From positions 21,208 through 85,207 of the IMG/VR virus record IMGVR_UViG_3300047323_000428: 64,000 nucleotides of DNA, one strand, 5' to 3'. The notes below the pieces were generated by a model. It was not told where the DNA came from, searched no databases, and saw only the letters and a list, made by a program, of their open reading frames with translations. Shown one piece after another: positions 8,695-59,931 of this stretch; the first letter of the stretch is position 1, and the number at the start of each line of letters is the position of its first letter. Source of the DNA: a virus (taxonomy: Duplodnaviria; Heunggongvirae; Uroviricota; Caudoviricetes). Position numbers and translations under genes: made by a program.

Positions 8695-9336
8695 TTACGC
8701 GCAGACGGCTTTGGCGTGAGCCACAAACGCGTCCGCACCCGTGAGTCCGGTTTGCTCTTCGATCAGCGCCATGAAGCGCGCCAGGTGCTTTTCATCTCGG
8801 CCGGCAACGGCTTTGAAGCCCAGCGCCTTCTCGAGCTTCACCTCACGCGCATCGGTCTTCTCGACGGTTTTGGCCGTCTCTGCCGCCTGCTCGCGCACTT
8901 CTGCGTCCAGATCCTCCACGAACGGAGCGTCGTTGATGATCGACAGGTCCGCGGTCATGAAGTCGAGCTCCTTCGGGTCGAAGATGCCTTCGAGGTCGAA
9001 GTCGAGGCTGGCAAGCTCTTCCTGCAGGATGCGCGCGTCGATCTCCGACAGGGCAACCCGGTTGTCCGCCAGGCGCAGCGCGCGTGCTTCCTCTTTGGAG
9101 AGGTCATCGCGCACGACCACCGGCACGTGGGTTTGTCCGAGCGAGAGTGCAGCCAGGCGCCGGCCGTGACCCGCGATGATGGTGCCGTCGGCTTCGGTGA
9201 CGATCGCCGTGTTCCAGCCGAAGGCCTTGATCGACTCGGCGATCTTCTTCACCTGTGCGTCGTCGTGGGTCTTCGCGTTCAGTTCGTAGGGCTTGAGCCA
9301 CTCGACGGGCTTGAGCACCGGTTTGAATTCGTTCAT
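8695..9336 (-). CDS. ParB-like nuclease domain protein (ParB/Srx fold)
   Basis: IVTEADGTIIAGHGRRLAA matches the ParB N-terminal GxxRxxA motif. ATG at 9334-9336 overlaps the upstream stop (ATGA). Confidence 0.6.
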   Translation of the reverse strand: MNEFKPVLKPVEWLKPYELNAKTHDDAQVKKIAESIKAFGWNTAIVTEADGTIIAGHGRRLAALSLGQTHVPVVVRDDLSKEEARALRLADNRVALSEIDARILQEELASLDFDLEGIFDPKELDFMTADLSIINDAPFVEDLDAEVREQAAETAKTVEKTDAREVKLEKALGFKAVAGRDEKHLARFMALIEEQTGLTGADAFVAHAKAVCA

Positions 9337-9551
9337 GCTTTTTCCTGATTCAGATAGGCGACCCACTGGCCTTTCGTCCAGCGACCCCAGTGCTTGGGCG
9401 TGAAAATCATTGCCTCGTAAGACGGCAGGCGCTTGAATTCGGTCGGCCAGAGCGTGCTGTCGTTGATGAAGGCGACTGACACGGTGTAGGCCATGTGGTT
9501 TCTAGCCAGCATGAGCATCACCAGGCCCATCAAAACCAAGCAGACGGTCAT
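9333..9551 (-). CDS. Small membrane protein (72 aa)
   Basis: N-terminal transmembrane helix MTVCLVLMGLVMLMLA. ATG at 9549-9551; the listed first codon is a GTG. Confidence 0.45.
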   Translation of the reverse strand: MTVCLVLMGLVMLMLARNHMAYTVSVAFINDSTLWPTEFKRLPSYEAMIFTPKHWGRWTKGQWVAYLNQEKA

Positions 9552-10163: not shown

Positions 10164-10811
10164 TTATTTCGTGAGGAGGTGAACGAGTGCGGCGCCGGCG
10201 TTCGAGAGCGAGTCGTCCTCGGTGAAGCGCTGGGCCTTCATGGTCTTTTCGATGAGGTCCGTGATGGTGCCGACGTCCTCGACGGGCACCTTGAACCGCA
10301 TGATCTGATGGGTCTGCACGACCGCTTCCTTGGGCAACGGGGTTGGGGCCGCGTCGTCATCCGGTATATCTAAATCATCCAGTTCTATATTTACGGATGA
10401 AAAGATTGAAGCGAAGTCCGCGTCCGTGTAGGGCAAGAACGTTGCGAGGTCTTCGGGCGCTCCCAGACCGTCAAGCAGTTCCGCCAGGCGTAGCGTGTCG
10501 TCGTTGCCGTAGCGGGCGTTGTCGACGAGGCCAATCTCCTTCGCTTTCTGGTCGTCGATGGCACCCACGTTCATCACGGGCACGCGGTCGAAGCCCAGAC
10601 GCATCGCAGCGTCGCGCCGATGAGCGCCACCGAGGATCTGATAGCTGCCGTCGGCAAGGGTGCGCACGATGATCGGCTTGAACATGCCGAGGCGCTTCAG
10701 AGACGCCTCGATCTTGGCCTCCTCTTCCGGGCTGCACACGTTGGTGTTCCAGGGATTGGGCTTGAGCGCGGAAGGCGCCAGTTCGAGCGTTTCGATGTGG
10801 GGCTTACCCAT
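10164..10811 (-). CDS. Second ParB-like nuclease domain protein
   Basis: ILGGAHRRDAAMRLG motif. The likely ATG at 10809-10811 is M4 of the listed ORF, which begins with a TTG. Confidence 0.55.
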   Translation of the reverse strand: MGKPHIETLELAPSALKPNPWNTNVCSPEEEAKIEASLKRLGMFKPIIVRTLADGSYQILGGAHRRDAAMRLGFDRVPVMNVGAIDDQKAKEIGLVDNARYGNDDTLRLAELLDGLGAPEDLATFLPYTDADFASIFSSVNIELDDLDIPDDDAAPTPLPKEAVVQTHQIMRFKVPVEDVGTITDLIEKTMKAQRFTEDDSLSNAGAALVHLLTK

Positions 10812-10833
10812 AGGTTTCAATGGCTTAGTTGGA

Positions 10834-10851
10834 TAGTCAGTTTTGACTGTT
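10834..10851 (-). promoter_or_regulatory. PDM consensus copy (TAGTCAGTTTTGACTGTT) in a divergent intergenic region
   Basis: 22 nt upstream of the ParB-like ATG on the minus strand and 30 nt upstream of the plus-strand helicase ATG. Confidence 0.85.
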
Positions 10852-10880
10852 GGCGCTTATACTACGCCTTACACAACAGG

Positions 10881-12452
10881 ATGGCAACTCAGGACATGGC
10901 AACGATCACGCTGGCATACAACGCAACCACCGCGAAGCTCGTGGAAACCGACCGCGCGCTCAAGCTGGAGGTGCAAAAGCTCGTTTCCTACCGGGTGAGC
11001 GGCGCGGAGAACACGCTGCCCTTCAAAACCGGTGGCTGGGACGGCCGCAGCTCCTTCTTCGACTTTCGCAAGGGCACCTTCCCCGCCGGCTTCGTGCATT
11101 TCGTGGCAGCGGGCCTGCGTCGGGCCGGTCACACGGTGCGCTTCGTGGCAAAGGAAGCCCCGGAGCCGCTCGGACCGCTCAACCCCAAGATCGACAGCTT
11201 CCCGGAAGACGCGCGCTACGACTACCAGATGGAGACGGTCAACCGGCTCGTGAAACACCGCCAGATCATCGCCCAGCTCGCCACGGGCGCGGGCAAGAGC
11301 CGGGTCGCACGCCTTGCCTTCGCGCGTATCCGCCGGCCGACGCTTTTTCTCACCACGCGCTCGATCCTCATGTATCAGATGAAGGACGCGTTCGAAGAGT
11401 TGGGCGTGAAGTGCTCGGTGCTGGGCGACGGACAGTTCGGAACGGTCACAGTCGGCGCCGACGGTGAAGAACGACACTCGGTGAAGATGATGAGCGTTGG
11501 CATGGTTCAGACGCTTGTTTCGCGTCTTGCTGAACCGTGTCCGGACGATGACGTCGACAAGCAAAACGAGCAAGTGCGAATCCGCAACAAGACGATCGCG
11601 CTCTTGGAGAAGTTCGAGTTCGTGATCGGTGAGGAGGCGCACGAGGCGTCGGGCAACAGCTACTACGAGATCCTGCGCCACTGCAAGAACGCGCACTACC
11701 GGCTCGCACTGACAGCCACGCCCTTCATGAAGGACGATGAAGAGTCGAACATGCGCTTGATGGCCGCGTTCGGTCCGATCGGCATCAAGGTCAGCGAGAA
11801 GATGCTGATCGAGCGCGGCATCTACGCCCGCCCCTTCTTCAAATACGTGGCGCTCAAGACCAAGCCGCCCAAGCTCTTTCGGGGCACCACGTGGCAGGCC
11901 GCCTACCGCCTGGGGATTGTCGACAATGCCGAGCGCAATGCCCATATCGTCTTCGAGGCCCGCCGCGGCGTCGCATTGAAGCAGCCGGTGATGATCCTCG
12001 TGCAGCAGACACGCCACGGTGAGCTTTTGCGGGAGATGCTGGCTGCGAAGGGCGTGAAGGTGGAGTTCCTGCAGGGCGAGAACAACGCGAAGGAGCGCAA
12101 AGCGGCGCTCGGGCGTCTTCGGGAGCGGGAAACCGAGGTGCTGATCGGCACGACCATCATGGACGTTGGGGTCGACGTGCCGGCCATCGGGCTGGTGATC
12201 CTCGCCGGTGGTGGGAAGGCGCAGGTGGCGCTGCGTCAGCGGATCGGCCGCGGTGCGCGCGAGAAGAAGAAAGGCCCGAACTGCTTTTTCGTGGTCGACT
12301 TCGATGACCCCTGGAACAGCCACACGAAGGAGCACGCTCTGGCTCGCCGTGCGATCGTGGAGTCGACGCCGGGCTTCGTCGAAAACATCCTCCCGCCGGG
12401 CCGCGACTTCGATTTCGTGGGGCTGGGTTTTGCGACTCGCAAGGCAGCGTGA
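10881..12452 (+). CDS. SF2 DEAD/DEAH-box (type III restriction Res-like / UvsW-like) DNA helicase
   Basis: Walker A QLATGAGKS, DEAH-like VIGEEAHE, motif III LTATP and motif VI QRIGRGAR. ATG at 10881; the listed N-terminal extension overlaps the ParB gene. Confidence 0.75.
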   Translation: MATQDMATITLAYNATTAKLVETDRALKLEVQKLVSYRVSGAENTLPFKTGGWDGRSSFFDFRKGTFPAGFVHFVAAGLRRAGHTVRFVAKEAPEPLGPLNPKIDSFPEDARYDYQMETVNRLVKHRQIIAQLATGAGKSRVARLAFARIRRPTLFLTTRSILMYQMKDAFEELGVKCSVLGDGQFGTVTVGADGEERHSVKMMSVGMVQTLVSRLAEPCPDDDVDKQNEQVRIRNKTIALLEKFEFVIGEEAHEASGNSYYEILRHCKNAHYRLALTATPFMKDDEESNMRLMAAFGPIGIKVSEKMLIERGIYARPFFKYVALKTKPPKLFRGTTWQAAYRLGIVDNAERNAHIVFEARRGVALKQPVMILVQQTRHGELLREMLAAKGVKVEFLQGENNAKERKAALGRLRERETEVLIGTTIMDVGVDVPAIGLVILAGGGKAQVALRQRIGRGAREKKKGPNCFFVVDFDDPWNSHTKEHALARRAIVESTPGFVENILPPGRDFDFVGLGFATRKAA

Positions 12453-14412: not shown

Positions 14413-14445
14413 TAGTCAGTTTTGAGTGTTTCACGTGAAACACTC
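14413..14445 (-). promoter_or_regulatory. PDM variant (TAGTCAGTTTTGAGTGTT) fused to a 22-bp perfect palindrome GAGTGTTTCACGTGAAACACTC
   Basis: The palindrome spans 14424-14445 around a CACGTG core, 10 nt upstream of the 14402 start codon. An identical palindrome occurs at 15104-15125. Confidence 0.8.
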
Positions 14446-16112: not shown

Positions 16113-16360
16113 CTGCAACGCGAAACGGAGTGACGAACGAAACGAACGAAAGCGAGAATCGACCGAAGACTGAAACCGAGCGACGCGAGACGCGACGCGA
16201 CGAACCGAAAAACGGTGCGCTCGAACCGAGCGACGGAAAAACGGAACGCGCGACGCGACGAAGCGAAAAACGGATCGCACGCAGTGAGACTGCGCGACAC
16301 GTGACGCTCGAACCGCGCGAGATGCGCGACGCACGCGCTGCGCCGGCGGCCGGCGCATGA
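16113..16360 (+). ncRNA. Candidate non-coding transcript with an extreme T-depleted composition
   Basis: About 250 nt with very few T on the plus strand (CGA/ACG/GAA-type repeats), directly downstream of the 16076-16105 promoter. It ends at the GCGCCGGCGGCCGGCGC palindrome (16340-16356). It contains no convincing ORF. Confidence 0.3.
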
Positions 16361-16396: not shown

Positions 16397-16469
16397 CAAA
16401 ACTCCCTATCAGTGTCGGGCGAGGCTCCCGTTCAAATTCCCTATCAGTGTCGGCGACGGCTCCCGTTCC
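16397..16469. repeat. Two tandem iteron-like units (U1 16397-16433, U2 16434-16469)
   Basis: CAAAACTCCCTATCAGTGTCGGGCGAGGCTCCCGTTC and AAATTCCCTATCAGTGTCGGCGACGGCTCCCGTTCC. The conserved core is GTGTCGG-N6-GCTCCCGTTYC. Confidence 0.75.
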
Positions 16470-30202: not shown

Positions 30203-30417
30203 GCCTGCACCTCGCCTTTCACGAACACGCCCATGTCTTCCACGCGCGCATCGGTCCAATAAACCCGGTTCACGTCGGTGCCGTGAATGTCGCCGGGGTC
30301 CGGGCTGTAATGGGTGCCCCACTCGTGCCACTCGACTTGCAGCACGAGCACGGGCGATCGGAACAGCCTGCGTTGCGCACGGAACCGCGTGCGCCCGGTG
30401 AGCCTGATATTGGTCAT
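30199..30417 (-). CDS. Hypothetical protein (72 aa)
   Basis: ATG ORF overlapping the exonuclease stop. Confidence 0.4.
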   Translation of the reverse strand: MTNIRLTGRTRFRAQRRLFRSPVLVLQVEWHEWGTHYSPDPGDIHGTDVNRVYWTDARVEDMGVFVKGEVQA

Positions 30418-30986
30418 GCCGCCACCTTCAGCTTCTCAGTGAAGTCGGCCGGCAGCACCCACGTGCCGCGCTTCACGCCTTCGAAGAACGCGGCCATCAT
30501 GCGCTCCACGTCGTATTCCGCTGCGTGGGCAGCAGCAGCGTCGAATGGCACGTTCAGGGCGAAGCACAGTTCTTCCAGACGCGGTAGCTTTCCGTCCGGG
30601 CAGGCCCAGCGCGATTCCGAGCACGTGTCCCAGCCATCGACGTCGGGCAGCGTCATGCCGCACGCCTTGAACTCCTCGTAGAGAAAGCTCAGGTCGAAGA
30701 AGATGTTGTGGGCGATTACGAGGTCGCTCTTGGCAAAGCGGTCACGCACCTCGCCTGCGATATCGGCGAACTTCGGGCAGCCCACGAGGTCGCTGTAGGC
30801 GATGCCGTGAACTTCCTGCGCCTTCGCGGTAATCGGCCGCTCGGGATCCATGCGCTGGACGTATTTGTCGACCAGCTTGCGCGTGTGGAAGTCATACGTG
30901 AGCAAGGCGACTTCGATGATCTTGTCGCCCTTCTCGGCGTCGAGGCCGGTGGTTTCGGTGTCGAAACCGGTGACGAGGAGACTCAT
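30414..30986 (-). CDS. DnaQ-like DEDDh 3'-5' exonuclease
   Basis: Exo I GFDTETTG, Exo II AHNIFFDLSFL and Exo III HAAEYDVERM. Confidence 0.8.
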   Translation of the reverse strand: MSLLVTGFDTETTGLDAEKGDKIIEVALLTYDFHTRKLVDKYVQRMDPERPITAKAQEVHGIAYSDLVGCPKFADIAGEVRDRFAKSDLVIAHNIFFDLSFLYEEFKACGMTLPDVDGWDTCSESRWACPDGKLPRLEELCFALNVPFDAAAAHAAEYDVERMMAAFFEGVKRGTWVLPADFTEKLKVAA

Positions 30987-53341: not shown

Positions 53342-54359
53342 ACAGAGAGGGATTGAAAGCGCGGGCCCAGGCTTTCGCGTCTTTGGTGATCGAGCGGAAG
53401 GCCAACTCCTCGCAGACTGCGGTGAACTTCTCCAGGTCGAACTTGCCCATCACGACCCGCATATCCTCCTTCTGCGGCTTCTCGACCTTCAAAAGCTGCA
53501 TCAGGCGCAGATTGCGCGGGAAGATCAGGCGGCCCTGACCGGGGTAGGCGTCCATGTGCTTCTTGAGCGCCTTGTCGGCCGTCTTTGCGTCGGCTCCGGG
53601 CGGTGCCAGAAAGCGAGCCTTCCATTCGTCCTTCGTGAATTCGCTTCGACCGCAATAAAGCGAGCGCAACGCTTTTGACTTGGGGACGTATTCACCGCTC
53701 TCACAGCGTCGCCAAAACTCGCGCACCGATCCGAACTCAGCGATGAACTCTGGCGCTCCGCCCTCACCGATCCCACCGACGCCGCCAATGACGTCAGAGC
53801 CGTCGCCTTGCAGCGCTTTGCCTTCGAGAAAGGCATACGGAGTCGGGAAGCCCGTCATGTCCATGAAGTTCGCAAGCGTGATGCGCTTGTCCTGATCCCG
53901 ATGGTCTTGCCACGTCACGTTGCGTCGAACGAGTTGCGCCCAATCTTCATCGCCGGTGATAAGCAGGATCTCGTTCTCGGGCTTCTTGGTCAGTTCCGCC
54001 ACGAAGTAACCGGCCATGTCGTCGGCTTCGTGTTTCATCGCCGTGACCTGACGGATGCCCAGATGCTCCAGCGCGCGAGAGATATAAGGGCGCTGCTGCT
54101 TGTAGGACTCGCGCTCGGCTTTCTTCTTGGCGTCGTTGTCGCGGTTCGACTTATACGGCGGGTGCATGTCGAAGCGCCACTGTGCGCGACCGTCCCACAG
54201 CCAGAGCAGCGTCGCGCCCGGATGGGTGCGGCGAATGTCGCGCGCCGTGTGGATCGTGCCGTAGATCGCCTGAGTTTCGAGATCGCCGGAGCGCAGCTTC
54301 GTGCCGCGGTGTGCCGCGTGCCCAACGCTGTTGCCGTCGATGATGATGGTCTTGCTCAA
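53340..54359 (-). CDS. 5'-3' exonuclease / flap endonuclease (PIN-like; RNase H / Pol I 5'-exonuclease family)
   Basis: IIIDGNSVGHAAHR, LITGDEDWAQLV and a helix-3-turn-helix region GDGSDVIGGVGGIG. TTG start at 54357-54359 with a GGAGAA ribosome-binding site. Confidence 0.8.
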   Translation of the reverse strand: MSKTIIIDGNSVGHAAHRGTKLRSGDLETQAIYGTIHTARDIRRTHPGATLLWLWDGRAQWRFDMHPPYKSNRDNDAKKKAERESYKQQRPYISRALEHLGIRQVTAMKHEADDMAGYFVAELTKKPENEILLITGDEDWAQLVRRNVTWQDHRDQDKRITLANFMDMTGFPTPYAFLEGKALQGDGSDVIGGVGGIGEGGAPEFIAEFGSVREFWRRCESGEYVPKSKALRSLYCGRSEFTKDEWKARFLAPPGADAKTADKALKKHMDAYPGQGRLIFPRNLRLMQLLKVEKPQKEDMRVVMGKFDLEKFTAVCEELAFRSITKDAKAWARAFNPSL

Positions 54360-54435: not shown

Positions 54436-55275
54436 TTACGCCGCTGCTTCCAGATCGCCCAGCAGATCGTCCAGCTCGCTGTCGAGCGCAACGCTTGCCG
54501 CCGACGGACCCGCTTCGACCTTCGTGCCGCGCATTTCCAGCTCGCGCAACTCGTCGTCGCCATCGAGCTCGGGTGCTGCCAGCGCCTTCGTCTTCGGCAC
54601 GTCGCGGTTCTCGGCGGCCGGCAGAAGACCTGCGACCGACGAAATTGCCGTCAGTGCGCGGCGCGTCTGCTCTTCGTTTTCCTGCGCGACGTATTCGTCC
54701 AGGTTGTGCAGCTTTGCCTGGATGCCCGCCGGCAGCGTGTGCTTCTTCGGCGAAATCTGAACGGAATACTTGGTGTTCAGACCCTTGCCGTCGCGCTGGA
54801 TCACGACGATTTGCGGGGTGGAGGCGTCGAACATCTGCGGACCCCACTCTTCGATCGTGTCGACCAGTTGCGTGAACGCCGACTTGCCGAGTTCGTAGAT
54901 CACCGGCTCTTCCTTCGTCGGGCCGTCGAGGTCGAGCACGTTCAGGACGAAGCCCTGCTTGCTCTTGGCGCCCTTGAGCGCTTCCACGGTTTCGTCGTCG
55001 GTCGTCACACGCATGGCCTTATTCAGACCGTCGCACGCGGCGCACGGCTTGCCGAAGGTGGCGTCCGCACACGGGATCACTGCCTGGATTTCACCTGCTG
55101 CGTTCTTGATGAAGTGCTGACCCCACTCGTGGAAGAACGTCTCGCGGTCTTCCTCGCGCCAGCCACCGAGAATCACGAGGCGGTTTGCGCCCGGACGGGG
55201 CTTGACGGTCTTTTCCTTCGGCTTGAGCGCGGCCTTCTTTTGCTTCATCAGGGCCATCAGCTTGCTCGTATCCAT
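54436..55275 (-). CDS. gp32-like single-stranded DNA-binding protein
   Basis: Zinc-site pattern H-x14-C-x8-C-x2-C (HFIKNAAGEIQAVIPCADATFGKPCAAC) resembling T4 gp32 His64/Cys77/Cys87/Cys90, plus an acidic C-terminal tail. ATG at 55273-55275 with an AGGAA ribosome-binding site. Confidence 0.6.
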   Translation of the reverse strand: MDTSKLMALMKQKKAALKPKEKTVKPRPGANRLVILGGWREEDRETFFHEWGQHFIKNAAGEIQAVIPCADATFGKPCAACDGLNKAMRVTTDDETVEALKGAKSKQGFVLNVLDLDGPTKEEPVIYELGKSAFTQLVDTIEEWGPQMFDASTPQIVVIQRDGKGLNTKYSVQISPKKHTLPAGIQAKLHNLDEYVAQENEEQTRRALTAISSVAGLLPAAENRDVPKTKALAAPELDGDDELRELEMRGTKVEAGPSAASVALDSELDDLLGDLEAAA

Positions 55276-55365
55276 CTTTGTTCCTTTTTCAGTTTGGTAG
55301 TAGAAAGTTGCCTTTTGGACTTCGCGGTGGAATATCACCGCTTCATCGTTTCAGCATGCTAATTA

Positions 55366-56565: not shown

Positions 56566-59500
56566 TTACGACAGAATCTCCGCCGTCTTCTCGAACACCG
56601 CCGCGAGCACGTCAGCCTTCGCCGGGTCAAAGAGGACTTGCTGCGCGTTGATACCGCACACAACGCTGGCGTCCAGCGTCTTGTCGAAGATCACCTTGCC
56701 AGCAAGCTCGGCCGTGCCGCCCTTGATGCCCGGCACAAAGTGCTTGATCGTGGCCGAGCCGAGCGCGACGATCACCGCCGGCTTAATGAGCTCCAACTCG
56801 CGCTGCAGGAAGCCCTTGCAGTTGTTGATCTGGCCGTTGGAGAGGAACTTGTCGTTCTTCTTCGCCTTGACGAGCGACGTGTAGTAGCCCTCTGCCGGAT
56901 TCAGCCCCGCCGCCTTGATCGCTTCCTTGATGAAATCCGCGGCGTCGCCTTCGAGCATCTTGTCGGCCTTCTCCTCCTGCCAGCTTGGGCAGTCGGACAC
57001 CACCATGAACTTCACCGTGTGCTTGGCGCGCACCGTCGGGTGAGGCTGTCCCGCGAGGTCGCAGCTTTCGCAGCCCTTGTATTCCTGCACGAGCGAAATC
57101 ACCTTCGCCCGCAAGAACTTCTCCTTCAGGTCGGTCGTGCGATCGGCCTTCACCGCGTCGATAATCAGCCCGCCCATGAGTTCGGTCTGGTCACGCCGGC
57201 GGTCCAGGTGTCGCGCGGGCAACGATCCGGGTTTAATCGGCACGAGCGCACCGACCTTGTCCAGCACATCACGCACCTTCGAATTGACTTTCGAGCCCTT
57301 CGCCTCTGTGATCTTGAGGAAGTGCTCCTCGTCACGGAAGGCGCCGCCCTCGAGATTGCGCAGCTCCACCATCCGCTTGGCCGTGTTCTCGGAGATCCCC
57401 TTCACTGCCGAGAATGGCGCGAGCAGGTGGTTGTCGTCGGGGATGGTGAAGCGCTCGCGCGAGAGGTTGATATCGGGCGGCAGCACCTCGATCCCGTATT
57501 CACGCGCTTCCTCGACGAGCTTGGGCAACTTGTCCTCGTCCACGATCGACATACAGGCAGCGAAGTATTCCGCCGGGTAGCGCACCCGCACCCAGAGCGA
57601 CCAGTAGCTAATGATCGAATACTCGACCGCGTGGCTCTTGTTAAAACCGTAGCCTGCAAAGGCCTCGATCTTGTCGAAGATGCGACCCGCGACCTCTTCG
57701 TTCATGCCGGACGTGGAGTGACAGCCATCGACCCACTTCTGTCGCATTTCGGCCATCTTGTCCTTGTCCTTCTTGCCCATCGCTTTCCGCAGGTGGTCCG
57801 CTTCCGCCTTCGTGAAACCTGCGAGGTCGACCGCGACCTGCATGACCTGTTCCTGGTAGACGATGACGCCATAGGTGTCCTTGAGCGCCGCCTCCATGTT
57901 CGGGTGGTCGTAGCTGATCGACTTCACGCCCTGCTTGATCTGGATGAAGTCGTCCATCAGGCCCGAGTCCATTGGGCCCGGTCGATAGAGCGCGGTGGCC
58001 GCTGTCACGTCATCGAACGTAAGCGGCCCACCCATCGCCAGATTCCTGAGCAGCGCCTTCATGCCGCCTGAGTCGAACTGGAACACACCCGTCGTGTCGC
58101 CCGCGCCAAATGCCTGCATGACGTCCGATTCACCCAGCGGAATGTCGAGGTAGTTGACCTTCACCCCGTGCCGCTCTTCGATGTAGCTCTTGGCGATCTC
58201 CAGCACATCGAGCGTGGAGAGCCCCAGAATGTCCATCTTGACCAAGCCCCAGTCCTCGACGACCCGCTTGTCCCAGTTCACCACCGGCGACTCGCCACGC
58301 GTTTCAACGACCGCACGGTTCACAAGCGGCTCGCCCGCGACCACGATACCCGCTGCGTGCTGGCCGAAGTTGCGCATGGCGCCTTCGAGCTTCAGGGCGT
58401 GGCCCCACACCTCCGGGTGCTCGTCGCGGAACTTCTCCAGCTCGGGCACGGCTTTGGCCGATTCCGTGAGCGTGAGGGAATTGCCGTGCTCTTTGGGCAC
58501 GAGCTTGGTAGCGGTCAGTTCGAGCGGCTGCATGCCATGCACGCGGCCGGTGTCGCGTAGCGCGGAGGCAGAAGCGAGCGTCGAATAGTTGGAGATGCCG
58601 GCGACGCGATCCTTGCCGTATTTGGCGGTCAGGTATTCGATCACCAGATGGCGCTTGCTTGACATGAAATCGAGGTCGGCGTCGGGCAAGTCCAGACGCT
58701 CGGGGTTGATGAAGCGCTCGAACAGGAGATTGAACCGGATTGGATCCACATCGGTGATGCCAAGCAGGTAAGCGACGAGCGAGCCGCCCACCGATCCGCG
58801 GCCTGGGCCGACGATGATGCCGTTTTCCTTCGCCCACATCACGAGGTCTTCCACGAGCAGGAAGTAGCCCGCGAAGCCCATTTTCTTGAGCACCGACAAC
58901 TCGTATTGGAGTCGCTCCTTGTAGACGGGCATGTCGGCCGCCGTCGGCATGTAACCGAGCACGGCCACCGAGAAGCGCCGCTTCCAGCCTTCGAGACACT
59001 TCTTGCCGAGCGCCATGAACTCGTTTTCGGCCATCTGCGGCAGCGACACCGGCTGCTTCTTGAACTCGTAGCCACAGGCGGCCGCGATCTTCTCGACGTT
59101 CTGCAGGCCGGCGAGCCAGAGCTTCGGTTCGTTCACGCCATAGAACTTGACCGCGCGAGCGTGCGCGGCCTTCATCTTGTCGACCAGGTGCTTCGGTTCG
59201 TGAAAGCCGAAGTCCTTCACGTGCTGAATCGAGCGGAACTTCGTGTCCATCTTGTCGCCGTCGGCGATCACCTTCAGCACCGCGAGCGTGTCAGCGTCCT
59301 CGTTCTCCCGATAGTAGGTCGGGAACGTGATGATCGGCTGAATGTCGAGGATGCGCGCAATCGTCAGCGCCTTTGCGTTGAGCGTGTCGTAGAGCGGCGT
59401 GTCGATCGGCACGAGCTCCACGAAGAAGTCGTCGGCGAAGAAGTCCTTGAGCTTTCGCGCGTGCGCTTCGGCTTGCGGGTGATGGAACAGGCCGTTGTAG

Positions 59501-59931
59501 TCGCCGGTCGTGACGACCACGCCCTCGAGCTCCAGCACGTCGTTCAGGCCCACGCGCGAGACATAGTAGAAATACTCGGGCGAATTGGCCTTCGACAGCA
59601 GCTTGATAAGGCTCGACACCCCGCGCTCGTCCTTCGCGTAGACCTTGAGCGTCACCATCGGGTTCGGCTTGTCTGCGTGCGTGTCGCCCTTCTTGGGCTT
59701 GCGGTGCGTCGGATCGTCGACCACGCGCAACTCGCAGCCGATGATCGCCTTGATGCCGACTTTCTTCGCACGATTGGCGAAGTCGACCATCGCGTGCAGG
59801 CTCATCGCGTCGGTGAGCGCAACCGACTCGTAGCCCAGCTCCTTCGCCTTTGTGACGAGTTGGTCGACCTGAAGCATCGAGCGGCCGATGGAGAAGTCGC
59901 TCCTTACGCCGAGCGCGTGCCCGAGATTCAT
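56566..59931 (-). CDS. dnaE: DnaE-type (Pol III alpha-like, PHP domain) DNA polymerase with a C-terminal UDG-like (family 4/5 fold) domain
   Basis: PHP domain at the N-terminus, polymerase core, and a (HhH)2 motif GISENTAKRMVELR. The last ~200 aa align with the family-4 uracil-DNA glycosylase fold (…CKGFLQRELELIKPAVIVALGSATIKHF…), but the GEAPG and GrPFvG motifs are replaced by SDCPSW and DKMLEG. Confidence 0.8.
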   Translation of the reverse strand: MNLGHALGVRSDFSIGRSMLQVDQLVTKAKELGYESVALTDAMSLHAMVDFANRAKKVGIKAIIGCELRVVDDPTHRKPKKGDTHADKPNPMVTLKVYAKDERGVSSLIKLLSKANSPEYFYYVSRVGLNDVLELEGVVVTTGDYNGLFHHPQAEAHARKLKDFFADDFFVELVPIDTPLYDTLNAKALTIARILDIQPIITFPTYYRENEDADTLAVLKVIADGDKMDTKFRSIQHVKDFGFHEPKHLVDKMKAAHARAVKFYGVNEPKLWLAGLQNVEKIAAACGYEFKKQPVSLPQMAENEFMALGKKCLEGWKRRFSVAVLGYMPTAADMPVYKERLQYELSVLKKMGFAGYFLLVEDLVMWAKENGIIVGPGRGSVGGSLVAYLLGITDVDPIRFNLLFERFINPERLDLPDADLDFMSSKRHLVIEYLTAKYGKDRVAGISNYSTLASASALRDTGRVHGMQPLELTATKLVPKEHGNSLTLTESAKAVPELEKFRDEHPEVWGHALKLEGAMRNFGQHAAGIVVAGEPLVNRAVVETRGESPVVNWDKRVVEDWGLVKMDILGLSTLDVLEIAKSYIEERHGVKVNYLDIPLGESDVMQAFGAGDTTGVFQFDSGGMKALLRNLAMGGPLTFDDVTAATALYRPGPMDSGLMDDFIQIKQGVKSISYDHPNMEAALKDTYGVIVYQEQVMQVAVDLAGFTKAEADHLRKAMGKKDKDKMAEMRQKWVDGCHSTSGMNEEVAGRIFDKIEAFAGYGFNKSHAVEYSIISYWSLWVRVRYPAEYFAACMSIVDEDKLPKLVEEAREYGIEVLPPDINLSRERFTIPDDNHLLAPFSAVKGISENTAKRMVELRNLEGGAFRDEEHFLKITEAKGSKVNSKVRDVLDKVGALVPIKPGSLPARHLDRRRDQTELMGGLIIDAVKADRTTDLKEKFLRAKVISLVQEYKGCESCDLAGQPHPTVRAKHTVKFMVVSDCPSWQEEKADKMLEGDAADFIKEAIKAAGLNPAEGYYTSLVKAKKNDKFLSNGQINNCKGFLQRELELIKPAVIVALGSATIKHFVPGIKGGTAELAGKVIFDKTLDASVVCGINAQQVLFDPAKADVLAAVFEKTAEILS

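What the first reader, a model, noticed from the sequence alone, without database searches (positions are those of the whole stretch)
56566..57200. DnaE-type polymerase with a C-terminal UDG-fold domain replacing the usual OB/tau-binding tail, and with degenerate catalytic motifs
The C-terminal 200 aa or so of the 1121-aa DnaE-like protein (minus strand; this is the low-coordinate end) aligns with family-4 uracil-DNA glycosylases. However, the catalytic GEAPG is replaced by SDCPSW and the GrPFvG motif by DKMLEG. This points to either a uracil or modified-base sensing domain, or a structural domain retained without glycosylase activity. A fusion to DnaE, rather than to a family A or B polymerase, is unusual.
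Basis: partly seen in the sequence, partly recalled or inferred. Interest (0 to 1): 0.65.

Follow-up and report, generated by a model that had tools for sequence, protein, structure and literature searches.

The report
Phage DnaE polymerase with UDG-fold tail
A phage replicative DNA polymerase (DnaE type) really does end in a domain with the fold of a uracil-DNA glycosylase in place of the usual tail. This architecture was described in 2014 and is standard for a large group of about 100-kb phages and phage-plasmids, so the find is a new member of a known but functionally untested kind.

Summary
ORF 56566-59931 (minus strand, 1121 aa) is a DnaE polymerase with PHP, Pol3 palm, fingers and (HhH)2 domains. 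Residues about 939-1121 are a family-4 UDG fold (Pfam PF03167 above threshold; profile E 1.7e-19 to PDB 4zbx; AF2 model TM 0.83-0.86, rmsd 2.2 Å to 1l9g/1vk2/1ui0). It replaces the OB fold and tau-binding tail.

It is not new. Timinskas et al. 2014 (NAR) described exactly this DnaE variant. I find it in Salmonella phage SSU5, Pseudomonas phage nickie, Rhizobium and Stenotrophomonas phages, about 150 Acinetobacter plasmids of about 110 kb, and more than 100 metagenomic clusters, in conserved synteny.

"Degenerate" is only half right. The uracil-specific Asn and stacking Phe are lost. The catalytic positions, however, are re-specified and conserved across 97 family members: motif A Glu to Asp (88/97) with Pro (86/97), and motif B His to Asn/Ser/Thr (92/97).

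A Cys-Cys-His-Cys set is present in about half the family and lost as a unit in the rest.

The most likely role, by inference, is a non-uracil-excising DNA-gripping or template-handling module. It would do the OB fold's job in a replisome with no annotated clamp or clamp loader. Retained glycosylase or lesion-sensing activity is not excluded.

The parts
56566..59931 (-). Complete dnaE-type polymerase gene (1121 aa plus stop) carrying the C-terminal UDG-fold domain
   Evidence: ORF list. Pfam finds PHP, DNA_pol3_alpha, finger, HHH_6 and UDG. PHROG 405 'DNA polymerase' matches residues 7-1120.
58219..58686 (-). Polymerase active-site region. The catalytic Asp motifs PDADLDF (residues 416-422) and KMDILGL (565-571) are intact.
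   Evidence: Alignment with E. coli DnaE: PDFDVDF aligns with PDADLDF and KFDFLGL with KMDILGL. Coordinates checked.
57241..57495 (-). (HhH)2 / HHH_6 domain (residues 813-897), the last segment homologous to cellular DnaE
   Evidence: Pfam PF14579, E 1.5e-13. A profile of the C-terminal half hits Taq and E. coli Pol III alpha up to about residue 895 of E. coli. MAFFT alignment.
57118..57201 (-). Linker (residues 911-938, RRRDQTELMGGLIIDAVKADRTTDLKEK). It holds the family-conserved Q-x-[ED]-L-[ML]-P-G motif, a candidate clamp-binding or docking motif.
   Evidence: Conservation in 97 sequences: Q915 81, L918 71, P920 74, G921 70. In the AF2 model, model residues 33-41 (full-length 910-918, DRRRDQTEL) are a helix and model residues 44-52 (full-length 921-929, GLIIDAVKA) have pLDDT below 50. 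MAFFT aligns it with the E. coli helix HRAALMNSL rather than with QADMF, so its status is uncertain.
56569..57117 (-). UDG-fold domain (residues 939-1121), family-4 type
   Evidence: Pfam PF03167, PDB sequence searches, AF2 model and Foldseek against PDB.
57061..57072 (-). CxxC (Cys954, Cys957), equivalent to the first two Fe-S ligands of family-4 UDGs
   Evidence: Aligned with CTAC and CKKC of TM0511, TthUDGA and StoUDG. Present in 52-53 of 97 family members.
57040..57042 (-). His964, candidate replacement for the missing third Cys ligand
   Evidence: Co-occurs with the three Cys in 48 of 50 cluster-bearing sequences. The only sequence that keeps the canonical third Cys (P0165) has Arg here.
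56980..56997 (-). Motif A equivalent, SDCPSW (residues 979-984), in place of GE(G/A)PG
   Evidence: Alignments. D980 is conserved in 88 of 97 and P982 in 86 of 97. W984 is not conserved.
56947..56964 (-). DKMLEG (residues 990-995), in place of GRPFVG. The uracil-stacking Phe position is Leu993.
   Evidence: Alignments. Position 993 is variable across the family (L25, M18, G16, A12) and G995 is conserved in 72 of 97.
56857..56886 (-). YYTSLVKAKK (residues 1016-1025), in place of Y(I/L)TNvVKCRP. The uracil-specific Asn is Ser1019 and the third Fe-S Cys is Ala1023.
   Evidence: Alignments. Y1016 is conserved in 94, T1018 in 96, K1022 in 91 and K1025 in 87 of 97. Position 1019 is S/A/T/G.
56818..56820 (-). 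Cys1038, equivalent to the fourth Fe-S ligand of family-4 UDGs
   Evidence: Aligned with the Cys of 'aaCghFL' and 'taCspyL'. It is Cys in 52 of 97 and Tyr or Trp in most of the rest.
56644..56655 (-). Motif B equivalent, GINA (residues 1093-1096), in place of (Y)HPA. The catalytic His is Asn1095.
   Evidence: Profile alignment to 4zbx: 'vfptyHPaaalynp' against 'vvvgiNPaqilfdp'. Position 1095 is N in 64, S in 17, T in 11 and H in 2 of 97. Position 1096 is P in 92 of 97.
30414..30986 (-). DnaQ/RNase T-type 3'-5' exonuclease, the likely separate proofreading subunit for this DnaE
   Evidence: Pfam PF00929, E 4.7e-24. A dnaQ gene is annotated in the related phage nickie. The PHP His residues of the DnaE are replaced.

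Best explanation
**What it is.** The protein is the replicative polymerase of a phage or phage-plasmid of about 110 kb, of the SSU5/Nickievirus type. Its polymerase core is intact. The cellular OB-fold and tau-binding tail has been replaced by a family-4 UDG fold.

**What has changed in the fold.** The residues that recognise uracil have been lost: Asn is Ser1019 and the stacking Phe is Leu993. The groove and pocket scaffold is kept, in the form Asp980-x-Pro982 and Asn1095 followed by a position that is Pro in 92 of 97 family members and Ala in this protein (Ala1096), together with invariant Tyr1016, Thr1018, Lys1022 and Lys1025.

**Most likely function (inferred).** The domain probably no longer removes uracil. 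It probably works as a built-in DNA-handling module. In this model it holds the template strand, or the DNA next to the active site, as the OB fold does in cellular DnaE. That would help a replisome that encodes no clamp or clamp loader stay on its DNA.

**Metal site.** The Cys954/Cys957/His964/Cys1038 set probably binds a structural metal centre (an Fe-S cluster or Zn). The centre is dispensable, because half of the family has lost the whole set.

**Shown versus inferred.**
- Shown: the fold, the domain replacement, the residue pattern, the family distribution, and the absence of clamp genes in an annotated complete relative.
- Inferred: DNA binding, the position of the domain on the template, and the lack of uracil excision.
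For: **Fold and domain replacement:**

**Selective loss of uracil-specific residues, with the scaffold retained and the catalytic positions re-specified.** This comes from the 97-sequence alignment:
- D980 88/97, P982 86/97, Y1016 94, T1018 96, K1022 91, K1025 87.
- Position 1095 is N, S or T in 92 of 97.
- Position 1019 (Asn equivalent) is S/A/T/G.
- Position 993 (Phe equivalent) is variable.

**The metal-ligand set is optional.** It is present in 50 of 97 sequences and absent in 47, and the pocket motifs are kept in both groups.

**The domain is kept in every lineage:**
- full-length proteins of 1080-1155 aa and split pieces of about 390 aa;
- isolate phages;
- plasmids;
- relatives where an HNH endonuclease gene splits dnaE.

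**The relative's replisome has no annotated clamp.** The complete genome of phage nickie has DnaB, DnaG, ligase, DnaE-UDG, DnaQ, SSB, FEN and RecA. It has no annotated clamp, clamp loader, stand-alone UDG or dUTPase. None was found among the window genes I annotated.

**Precedents from the literature:**
- The UDG domain of SPO1 and T5 PolA was proposed as an intrinsic processivity factor, by analogy with vaccinia D4 (PMC3201878).
- Cryo-EM of PolA-UDG fusions places the UDG on the 5' template strand, 5 nt ahead of the polymerase site, as in the mpox holoenzyme (bioRxiv 10.1101/2025.03.26.645540).
- N4-like PolA carries a UDG domain that has lost its catalytic residues.

**From my own knowledge:** the OB fold of cellular DnaE binds single-stranded template.
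Against: - No direct evidence of DNA binding exists, and I could not inspect model coordinates or domain packing.
- The net charge of the domain is not consistently basic across the family (median pI 6.7).
- The strong conservation of Asp980, Pro982 and Asn1095 fits a still-catalytic or base-flipping pocket better than a mere DNA clamp. Asp is the catalytic residue of family-1 UNG, and Asn occupies motif B in MUG (my own knowledge).
- The conserved Q-x-E-L-M-P-G linker motif could recruit the host beta clamp. In that case an intrinsic processivity role would be unnecessary.
Confidence: 0.45

Rival explanations
1. The domain is still a working glycosylase or lesion reader. It would scan the template ahead of the polymerase, using Asp980 as the water-activating residue and Asn1095 in place of His. 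Its specificity would have shifted away from uracil, for example to another deaminated, oxidised or modified base. This would be the C-family counterpart of the active PolA-UDG fusions.
For: - The catalytic positions are replaced conservatively and are highly conserved: D980 88/97, P982 86/97, and position 1095 is N/S/T in 92/97.
- Active PolA-UDG fusions read dU in the 5' template using E53, P55 and H178.
- Relatives encode a DNA ligase and a FEN nuclease that could complete repair.
- From my own knowledge, an Asp in motif A (UNG) and an Asn in motif B (MUG) occur in active glycosylases.
Against: - The uracil-recognising Asn and the stacking Phe are lost, and the Phe position is not conserved.
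- The SSU5 branch has degraded motif A further, to DNANG.
- No AP endonuclease or PolX was found in the window or in nickie.
- The window encodes a thymidylate synthase homolog and carries no hint of base modification that would need policing.
Confidence: 0.22
2. The domain is a protein-protein docking module that replaces the tau-binding tail. It would couple the polymerase to the phage DnaB-like helicase, the primase, the gp32-like SSB or the DnaQ subunit. DNA contact would be secondary.
For: - It occupies the position of the tau-binding C-terminal domain of E. coli DnaE.
- The phage group has its own DnaB, DnaG, SSB and DnaQ but no tau or clamp loader.
- The domain's net charge is near neutral or acidic in many members.
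- When dnaE is split, the UDG piece stays attached to the (HhH)2 piece as one protein.
Against: - The most conserved residues map to the ancestral DNA and base-binding motifs (motifs A and B and the Y-x-T...K...K strand) rather than to a new surface.
- No co-evolving partner was identified.
- UDG folds fused to other polymerase families contact DNA.
Confidence: 0.15
3. Processivity comes from the host beta clamp, recruited through the conserved Q-x-[ED]-L-[ML] motif just after the (HhH)2 domain. The UDG fold would then be a largely vestigial, structure-stabilising remnant of an old fusion.
For: - The motif matches the pattern of the E. coli alpha internal clamp-binding motif QADMF. It lies at a similar place and is highly conserved (Q915 81/97, L918 71/97).
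- The conserved segment that follows the motif (full-length residues 921-929, GLIIDAVKA) has low pLDDT in the model, as docking motifs often do.
Against: - MAFFT aligns the motif with the E. coli helix HRAALMNSL, not with QADMF.
- AF2 predicts the Q-x-E-L part as helical.
- A vestigial domain would not keep about 15 near-invariant residues across more than 90 clusters at 50% identity.
Confidence: 0.1

Closest known systems
DnaE 'DnaEX' variant with a UDG domain, described by Timinskas, Balvociute, Timinskas & Venclovas, NAR 2014 (PMC3919608). Represented by the DnaE of Salmonella phage SSU5 and SSU5-like phage-plasmids, and by Pseudomonas phage nickie.
   Same: - Same architecture: PHP, Pol3, fingers and (HhH)2, followed by PF03167 in place of OB and CTD.
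- The tail is homologous over 99-100% of its length: 44-46% identity to nickie and hairong, 29.6% to SSU5.
- Same gene order: CobT, CobS, small ORF, DnaE, then SSB, FEN exonuclease and RecA.
   Different: - It is a new, fairly distant lineage with 61% GC.
- There is no nucleotide-level match to any phage record.
- The closest relatives are metagenomic, at 72% identity or less.
- Unlike SSU5, it keeps the Cys-Cys-His-Cys set and the D-x-P-x-W form of motif A.
Family-4 uracil-DNA glycosylases (T. maritima TM0511 1l9g/1vk2, T. thermophilus UDGA 1ui0, S. tokodaii 4zbx) and UdgX
   Same: - Same fold: TM 0.83-0.86, rmsd 2.2-2.3 Å.
- Same order of motifs.
- The CxxC and the last Cys of the Fe-S site are kept, as are the Y-x-T, VK, and E...KP...GS framework residues.
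   Different: - Motif A GE(G/A)PG is SDCPSW.
- GRPFVG is DKMLEG.
- The uracil-binding Asn is Ser.
- The third Cys is Ala.
- The motif B His is Asn.
- The domain is fused to a polymerase rather than free-standing.
Phage A-family polymerases fused to UDG domains: active SP15-like and SPO1-like (YerA41, phiLo; PDB 9qhs) and inactive N4-like (Missoury et al. 2025 bioRxiv)
   Same: - A UDG fold is covalently attached to a phage replicative polymerase.
- The phiLo polymerase is a structural hit of my model (rank 42), and PolA-UDG fusions dominate the viral fold hits.
- The N4-like group likewise lacks the canonical catalytic residues.
   Different: - Different polymerase family (C rather than A).
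- The domain is C-terminal rather than N-terminal.
- It replaces an OB fold.
- The catalytic Glu and His are replaced by a conserved Asp and Asn, rather than kept (SP15-like and SPO1-like) or simply lost (N4-like).
Poxvirus D4/E4 UDG, a subunit of the B-family polymerase holoenzyme (with A20)
   Same: A UDG fold serves the replicative polymerase as a DNA-contacting accessory. It is cited as a processivity factor and as contacting the template ahead of the active site.
   Different: - It is a family-1 UDG.
- It is a separate polypeptide.
- It is catalytically active.
- It belongs to a eukaryotic virus.

Membership tests
C-family DNA polymerase, DnaE type | PHP domain, Pol3 palm with the three catalytic Asp, fingers and (HhH)2 domain | tested here: met
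   Pfam hits PF02811, PF07733 (E 1e-78), PF17657 and PF14579. PDADLDF and KMDILGL align with E. coli D401, D403 and D555.
C-family DNA polymerase, DnaE type | C-terminal OB fold and tau-binding domain (DnaE1 architecture) | tested here: not met
   There is no OB-fold hit. Homology to E. coli and Taq alpha ends at about E. coli residue 895. The remaining 183 residues form a UDG fold.
DnaE-UDG variant ('DnaEX' of Timinskas et al. 2014; SSU5/Nickievirus-type phage DnaE) | PF03167 domain in place of OB and CTD after the PHP-Pol3-(HhH)2 core | tested here: met
   for the architecture and for the published definition.
DnaE-UDG variant ('DnaEX' of Timinskas et al. 2014; SSU5/Nickievirus-type phage DnaE) | Sequence homology of the tail to that of the SSU5-type and nickie-type DnaE, in the same genomic neighbourhood | tested here: met
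   tblastn covers 99-100% of the tail, with E 5e-57 (hairong) to 2e-20 (SSU5). PHROG 405 matches the whole protein. The CobT-CobS-DnaE-SSB-exonuclease-RecA synteny is shared.
Uracil-DNA glycosylase superfamily, family 4 | alpha/beta UDG fold | tested here: met
   AF2 model with pLDDT 84.5. Foldseek E 9e-13, TM 0.84-0.86.
Uracil-DNA glycosylase superfamily, family 4 | Motif A GE(G/A)PG with the catalytic Glu | tested here: not met
   The motif is SDCPSW. The family consensus is x-D-x-P-x-x.
Uracil-DNA glycosylase superfamily, family 4 | Motif B with the catalytic His (HPA/HPS) | tested here: not met
   Asn1095 occupies this position. His occurs in only 2 of 97 family members.
Uracil-DNA glycosylase superfamily, family 4 | Uracil-recognising Asn (TNvVKCRP) and stacking Phe (GRPFVG) | tested here: not met
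   These positions are Ser1019 and Leu993. Neither canonical residue is recovered at family level.
Uracil-DNA glycosylase superfamily, family 4 | Four-Cys [4Fe-4S] site | tested here: inconclusive
   Cys954, Cys957 and Cys1038 are present, and the third Cys is Ala1023. A conserved His964 co-varies with the three Cys. The whole set is absent in 47 of 97 relatives. Metal content cannot be tested here.
Uracil-DNA glycosylase superfamily, family 4 | Uracil excision activity | not testable with these tools
   Needs an enzyme assay.
Read-ahead PolA-UDG fusions (SP15-like and SPO1-like) | A-family polymerase with an N-terminal UDG that keeps the catalytic E/P/H | tested here: not met
   This is a C-family polymerase with a C-terminal domain, and Glu and His are replaced.

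The most novel reading that the evidence does not exclude
The DnaE-fused UDG fold is a working template-scanning device. It could be a glycosylase with an Asp/Asn catalytic pair, or a base-flipping lesion sensor, in many members built around an unusual Cys3-His metal cluster. That would make C-family replicases another polymerase family with built-in 'read-ahead' base surveillance, alongside the A-family PolA-UDG fusions and the poxvirus B-family holoenzyme (both in the preprint read) and the archaeal B-family uracil pocket (my own knowledge). Its specificity would differ from uracil.
Probability: 0.2. Interest if true: 0.6.

Novelty: new member of a known kind. Interest (0 to 1): 0.3.

Why it matters
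The architecture is already in the literature and in hundreds of public phage and plasmid records, so the sequence adds only a new lineage.

What remains open is function. I found no paper in the held library that tests what a UDG fold does at the end of a C-family replicase. Since 2025 there has been direct structural evidence that UDG domains fused to A-family phage polymerases read the template ahead of the active site.

The family-wide pattern found here gives concrete mutational targets:
- loss of the uracil-specific residues;
- a conserved Asp-x-Pro and Asn-Pro pocket;
- an optional Cys-Cys-His-Cys site.

It also provides natural 'with cluster' and 'without cluster' pairs for comparison.

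The carriers include SSU5/pHCM2-type and Acinetobacter baumannii phage-plasmids, so the polymerase is also relevant to how clinically common phage-plasmids replicate.

Tried and rejected
- **Nucleotide similarity.** Megablast of 8 kb around the gene against 50,697 phage records found no match. Relationships are visible only at protein level.
- I rebuilt it without them.
- **Clamp-binding motif.** I considered calling DQTELMGGL a beta-clamp-binding motif on the strength of its resemblance to E. coli QADMFGVL. MAFFT aligns it to an earlier E. coli helix and AF2 makes part of it helical, so I kept it only as a candidate.
- **Domain charge.** I tested whether domain charge supports DNA binding. 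The family median pI is 6.7 with a wide spread, which is uninformative.
- **Modified-base or uracil-DNA lifestyle.** I looked for anything that would give the domain an obvious substrate. The window encodes RNR, a thymidylate synthase homolog, a MazG-like pyrophosphatase and a thymidylate-kinase-like protein. No hypermodification genes, dUTPase or stand-alone UDG were recognised.
- **Literature.** Searches for functional work on the DnaE-UDG fusion returned only the 2014 architectural mention. The Aravind & Koonin 2000 paper was not held.
- **RNA genes.** Rfam and tRNA scans of the window found nothing.
- **Full-length model.** I did not predict the full-length structure. Coordinates and PAE are not returned, so domain placement could not have been read from it.
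Full report
**1. The observation**

The minus-strand ORF 56566..59931 encodes a protein of 1121 aa.

Pfam finds these domains:

| Domain | Residues | Score |
|---|---|---|
| PHP | 9-173 | |
| DNA_pol3_alpha | 308-570 | E 1e-78 |
| finger | 573-739 | |
| HHH_6 | 813-897 | |
| UDG PF03167 | 972-1070 | E 1.5e-8, 35.2 bits against a gathering score of 24.3 |

No OB fold is detected.

The last 244 aa hit the family-4 UDGs TM0511 (4e-9) and T. thermophilus UDGA (4e-8) by plain phmmer. A 14-sequence profile of the domain alone reaches 1.7e-19 against S. tokodaii UDG, and the alignment runs from the CxxC to the C-terminal helix.

An AF2 model built on 29 homologs has mean pLDDT 84.5 and pTM 0.72. Its best PDB matches are all family-4 UDGs (1l9g, 1vk2, 4zbx, 1ui0). 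E-values are 1e-12 to 1e-11, target-normalised TM is 0.83-0.86 and rmsd is 2.2-2.3 Å. UdgX follows, then family 5, then TDG and MUG. The UDG fold is therefore real.

- GEGPG is SDCPSW and GRPFVG is DKMLEG (coordinates checked).
- I add that the uracil-recognising Asn of TNvVKCRP is Ser1019.
- The third Fe-S Cys is Ala1023.
- The motif-B His is Asn1095.

CESC is not upstream of the domain. It is the domain's own CxxC.

**2. What it replaces**

I aligned the protein with E. coli DnaE (fetched). Homology is clear through the catalytic motifs and the (HhH)2 domain, then stops at about E. coli residue 895:
- PDADLDF aligns with E. coli PDFDVDF.
- KMDILGL aligns with E. coli KFDFLGL.

The E. coli OB fold and tau-binding domain have no counterpart. 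Only about 40 residues separate the (HhH)2 domain from the UDG fold, so there is no room for an OB fold. The polymerase core looks active.

The PHP His residues are replaced (ALGVRSDFS against E. coli HLRVHSDYS). A separate DnaQ/RNase T-type exonuclease is encoded at 30414-30986.

**3. It is the normal tail of a large subfamily, and it is published**

- PHROG 405 ('DNA polymerase') covers residues 7-1120, including the tail.
- tblastn with the tail finds it at the end of the annotated DnaE of Pseudomonas phages nickie, hairong and ZY21 (42-46% identity), Stenotrophomonas phages, Rhizobium phage RHEph10 and relatives, and Salmonella phage SSU5 with SSU5-like Escherichia and Klebsiella phage-plasmids (about 29%).
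- In PLSDB it occurs in 253 plasmids. Of these, 154 are from Acinetobacter; those listed are about 101-134 kb, mostly about 105-113 kb. They are annotated either as dnaE or, where the gene is split, as 'uracil-DNA glycosylase family protein'.
- An exhaustive HMMER scan of 1.84 billion cluster representatives gives 129 clusters at E of 1e-10 or better. Almost all place the domain at the end of proteins of 1080-1155 aa or about 385-420 aa.
- The gene order CobT, CobS, small ORF, DnaE, then gp32-like SSB, FEN exonuclease and RecA is the same in the window, nickie and SSU5.
- Timinskas et al. [quoted passage not shown] PF03167'.

The architecture is therefore already known. The window holds a new lineage of it:
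- There is no nucleotide match to any phage record.
- The best metagenomic relatives are 72% identical or less.

I found no functional study of the domain in the held library.

**4. Degenerate, or re-specified?**

I aligned the tail of 97 family members: 41 full-length proteins, 41 split C-terminal pieces, 11 of other lengths, plus the window protein, nickie and SSU5.

The uracil-specific positions are lost:
- The Asn position is S/A/T/G.
- The Phe position is variable (L25, M18, G16, A12).

The positions of the catalytic residues are not random:

| Position | Count out of 97 |
|---|---|
| Asp980 (family-4 Glu position) | 88 |
| Pro982 | 86 |
| Position 1095 (family-4 His position) | Asn 64, Ser 17, Thr 11, His 2 |
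| Position 1096 (Ala in the window protein) | Pro 92 |

In phiLo PolA-UDG, the residues E53, P55 and H178 are the ones named as catalytic.

Framework residues are near-invariant: Tyr1016 (94), Thr1018 (96), Lys1022 (91), Lys1025 (87), Glu1045 (96), Pro1051 (92), Gly1058 (96), Lys1070 (81), Gly1078 (89), Asp1087 (82) and Gly1093 (89).

So the pocket is under purifying selection, but for something other than canonical uracil recognition. The SSU5 branch has drifted further (DNANG in motif A). That argues against a universally required chemistry.

**5. The metal site**

- Cys954, Cys957 and Cys1038 are all present in 50 of 97 sequences. In 48 of those 50, position 964 is His.
- In the other 47, including SSU5 and P0046, the three-Cys set is not kept. 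Position 1038 becomes mostly Tyr or Trp. Eight of these 47 still have His at position 964.
- The canonical third Cys (position 1023) is absent everywhere except in one outlier of 1840 aa (P0165). That outlier has Arg at position 964 and keeps the motif-B His.

This co-variation suggests a Cys3-His metal centre derived from the family-4 4Fe-4S site. Its wholesale loss in half the family, with motifs A and B unaffected, suggests it is structural and dispensable. This is an inference, since metal content cannot be computed.

**6. Context relevant to mechanism**

The window is the replication, recombination and nucleotide-metabolism arm plus part of the packaging module of a siphophage-like genome. 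The following were recognised:
- In some searches: CobS and CobT, a sigma factor, SSB, FEN, RecA/UvsX, SbcCD, RuvC, class I RNR, a thymidylate synthase homolog, a MazG-like pyrophosphatase and RtcB.
- In one search: two ParB-like genes, a helicase, terminase, portal and a head scaffolding protein.

No sliding clamp, clamp loader, dUTPase, stand-alone UDG, AP endonuclease or base-hypermodification gene was recognised among the ORFs I annotated.

The fully annotated relative nickie has DnaB, DnaG, ligase, DnaE-UDG, DnaQ, SSB, FEN and RecA. It also has no clamp, clamp loader, UDG or dUTPase.

The linker before the UDG fold carries a strongly conserved Q-x-[ED]-L-[ML]-P-G motif (Q915 81/97, L918 71/97, P920 74/97). 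It is followed by a conserved segment of low pLDDT. The pattern resembles the E. coli alpha internal clamp-binding motif QADMF. MAFFT, however, aligns it with an earlier E. coli helix. I leave it as a candidate docking motif.

**7. Most likely mechanism**

Three published precedents bear on function:
- Kazlauskas & Venclovas proposed that UDG domains fused to SPO1 and T5 PolA act as intrinsic processivity factors, by analogy with vaccinia D4.
- Missoury et al. showed by cryo-EM that in SP15-like PolA the UDG sits on the 5' template strand, 5 nt ahead of the polymerase site, and excises dU there. [quoted passage not shown]
- N4-like PolA carries a UDG that has lost its catalytic residues.

In cellular DnaE the OB fold binds single-stranded template (my own knowledge).

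Putting these together, the best-supported reading is this. The UDG fold here took over the OB fold's DNA-handling role. It grips or threads the template next to the active site in a replisome that has no annotated clamp or clamp loader. It has given up uracil excision. I put this at about 0.45.

The main rival is a still-active glycosylase or lesion reader with altered specificity. It is kept alive by the conserved Asp-x-Pro and Asn-Pro pair, and I put it at about 0.22. A protein-docking role replacing the tau-binding tail gets about 0.15. A host-clamp-dependent enzyme with a near-vestigial UDG gets about 0.10.

**8. Verdict**

The novelty is low, because this is a new member of a known and published architecture. 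The domain's function is still an open and now quite testable question, and the family-wide residue pattern reported here says which residues to mutate.

Noticed in passing
L004:3892-8179 (relative of the window gene); corresponds to about residue 735 of the window protein (window about 57725): In many metagenomic relatives dnaE is split into two genes: an N-terminal gene of about 789 aa (PHP, Pol3, finger) and a C-terminal gene of about 392 aa (HHH_6, UDG). A 231-aa HNH_3 homing-endonuclease gene lies between them. SSU5 has an in-frame insertion of about 50 aa at the same point in the finger domain. The window gene is uninterrupted. About half of the family representatives are such split pieces.
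   Followed up: partly
window:13800-18100: This is a stretch of lower GC (0.52 against 0.61) with no convincing ORFs and many repeats. It holds a perfect 23-nt palindromic box, TGAGTGTTTCACGTGAAACACTC, at 14423 and 15103. It holds 29-nt tandem repeats at 16191-16306 and 35-nt repeats at 16399-16468, 17410 and 17486. It lies several kb from two ParB-like genes (8695-9366 and 10164-10820) and a helicase gene (10620-12452). It may be a plasmid-type origin or partition region, which would fit a phage-plasmid lifestyle.
   Followed up: partly
window:30414-30986 (-): A DnaQ/RNase T-family 3'-5' exonuclease of 190 aa (PF00929, E 5e-24), probably the separate proofreading subunit. The DnaE PHP domain has lost the His residues seen in E. 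coli.
   Followed up: partly
window:57118-57201 (-), residues 911-938: The linker motif D-Q-x-E-L-M-P-G-L...V-K-A-D-R is highly conserved. The conserved stretch just after the Q-x-E-L-M core (full-length residues 921-929, GLIIDAVKA) has low confidence in the AF2 model. It resembles a beta-clamp-binding pentapeptide (Q-x-acidic-L-hydrophobic). It does not align with E. coli QADMF in MAFFT.
   Followed up: partly
P0001, identical to window residues 919-1121: The protein database holds a 203-aa product that is 100% identical to the end of this ORF. It starts at Met919, sits on a 110,811-bp JGI contig and is named 'DNA polymerase-3 subunit alpha'. The source annotation may therefore have a fragmentary gene call for this 1121-aa ORF.
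   Followed up: no
P0165, 1840 aa, UDG domain at residues 1672-1827: An outlier family member keeps all four canonical Fe-S cysteines and the motif-B His, with Arg at the His964 position. The domain sits at the end of a much longer protein. It may be a less derived form of the fusion.
   Followed up: no
window:53340-54563 (-) and 54436-55338 (-): The mechanically listed 407-aa FEN/5'-3' exonuclease ORF overlaps the SSB gene by 128 nt. Homology to exonuclease families begins at about residue 71. The real start is probably an internal codon near 54350.
   Followed up: no
window:61883-63995 (-): CobS-like AAA ATPase and CobT-like vWA genes lie immediately upstream of the sigma factor and dnaE, as in nickie and SSU5. 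Their role in these phages is unexplained. Their fixed linkage to dnaE is striking.
   Followed up: no
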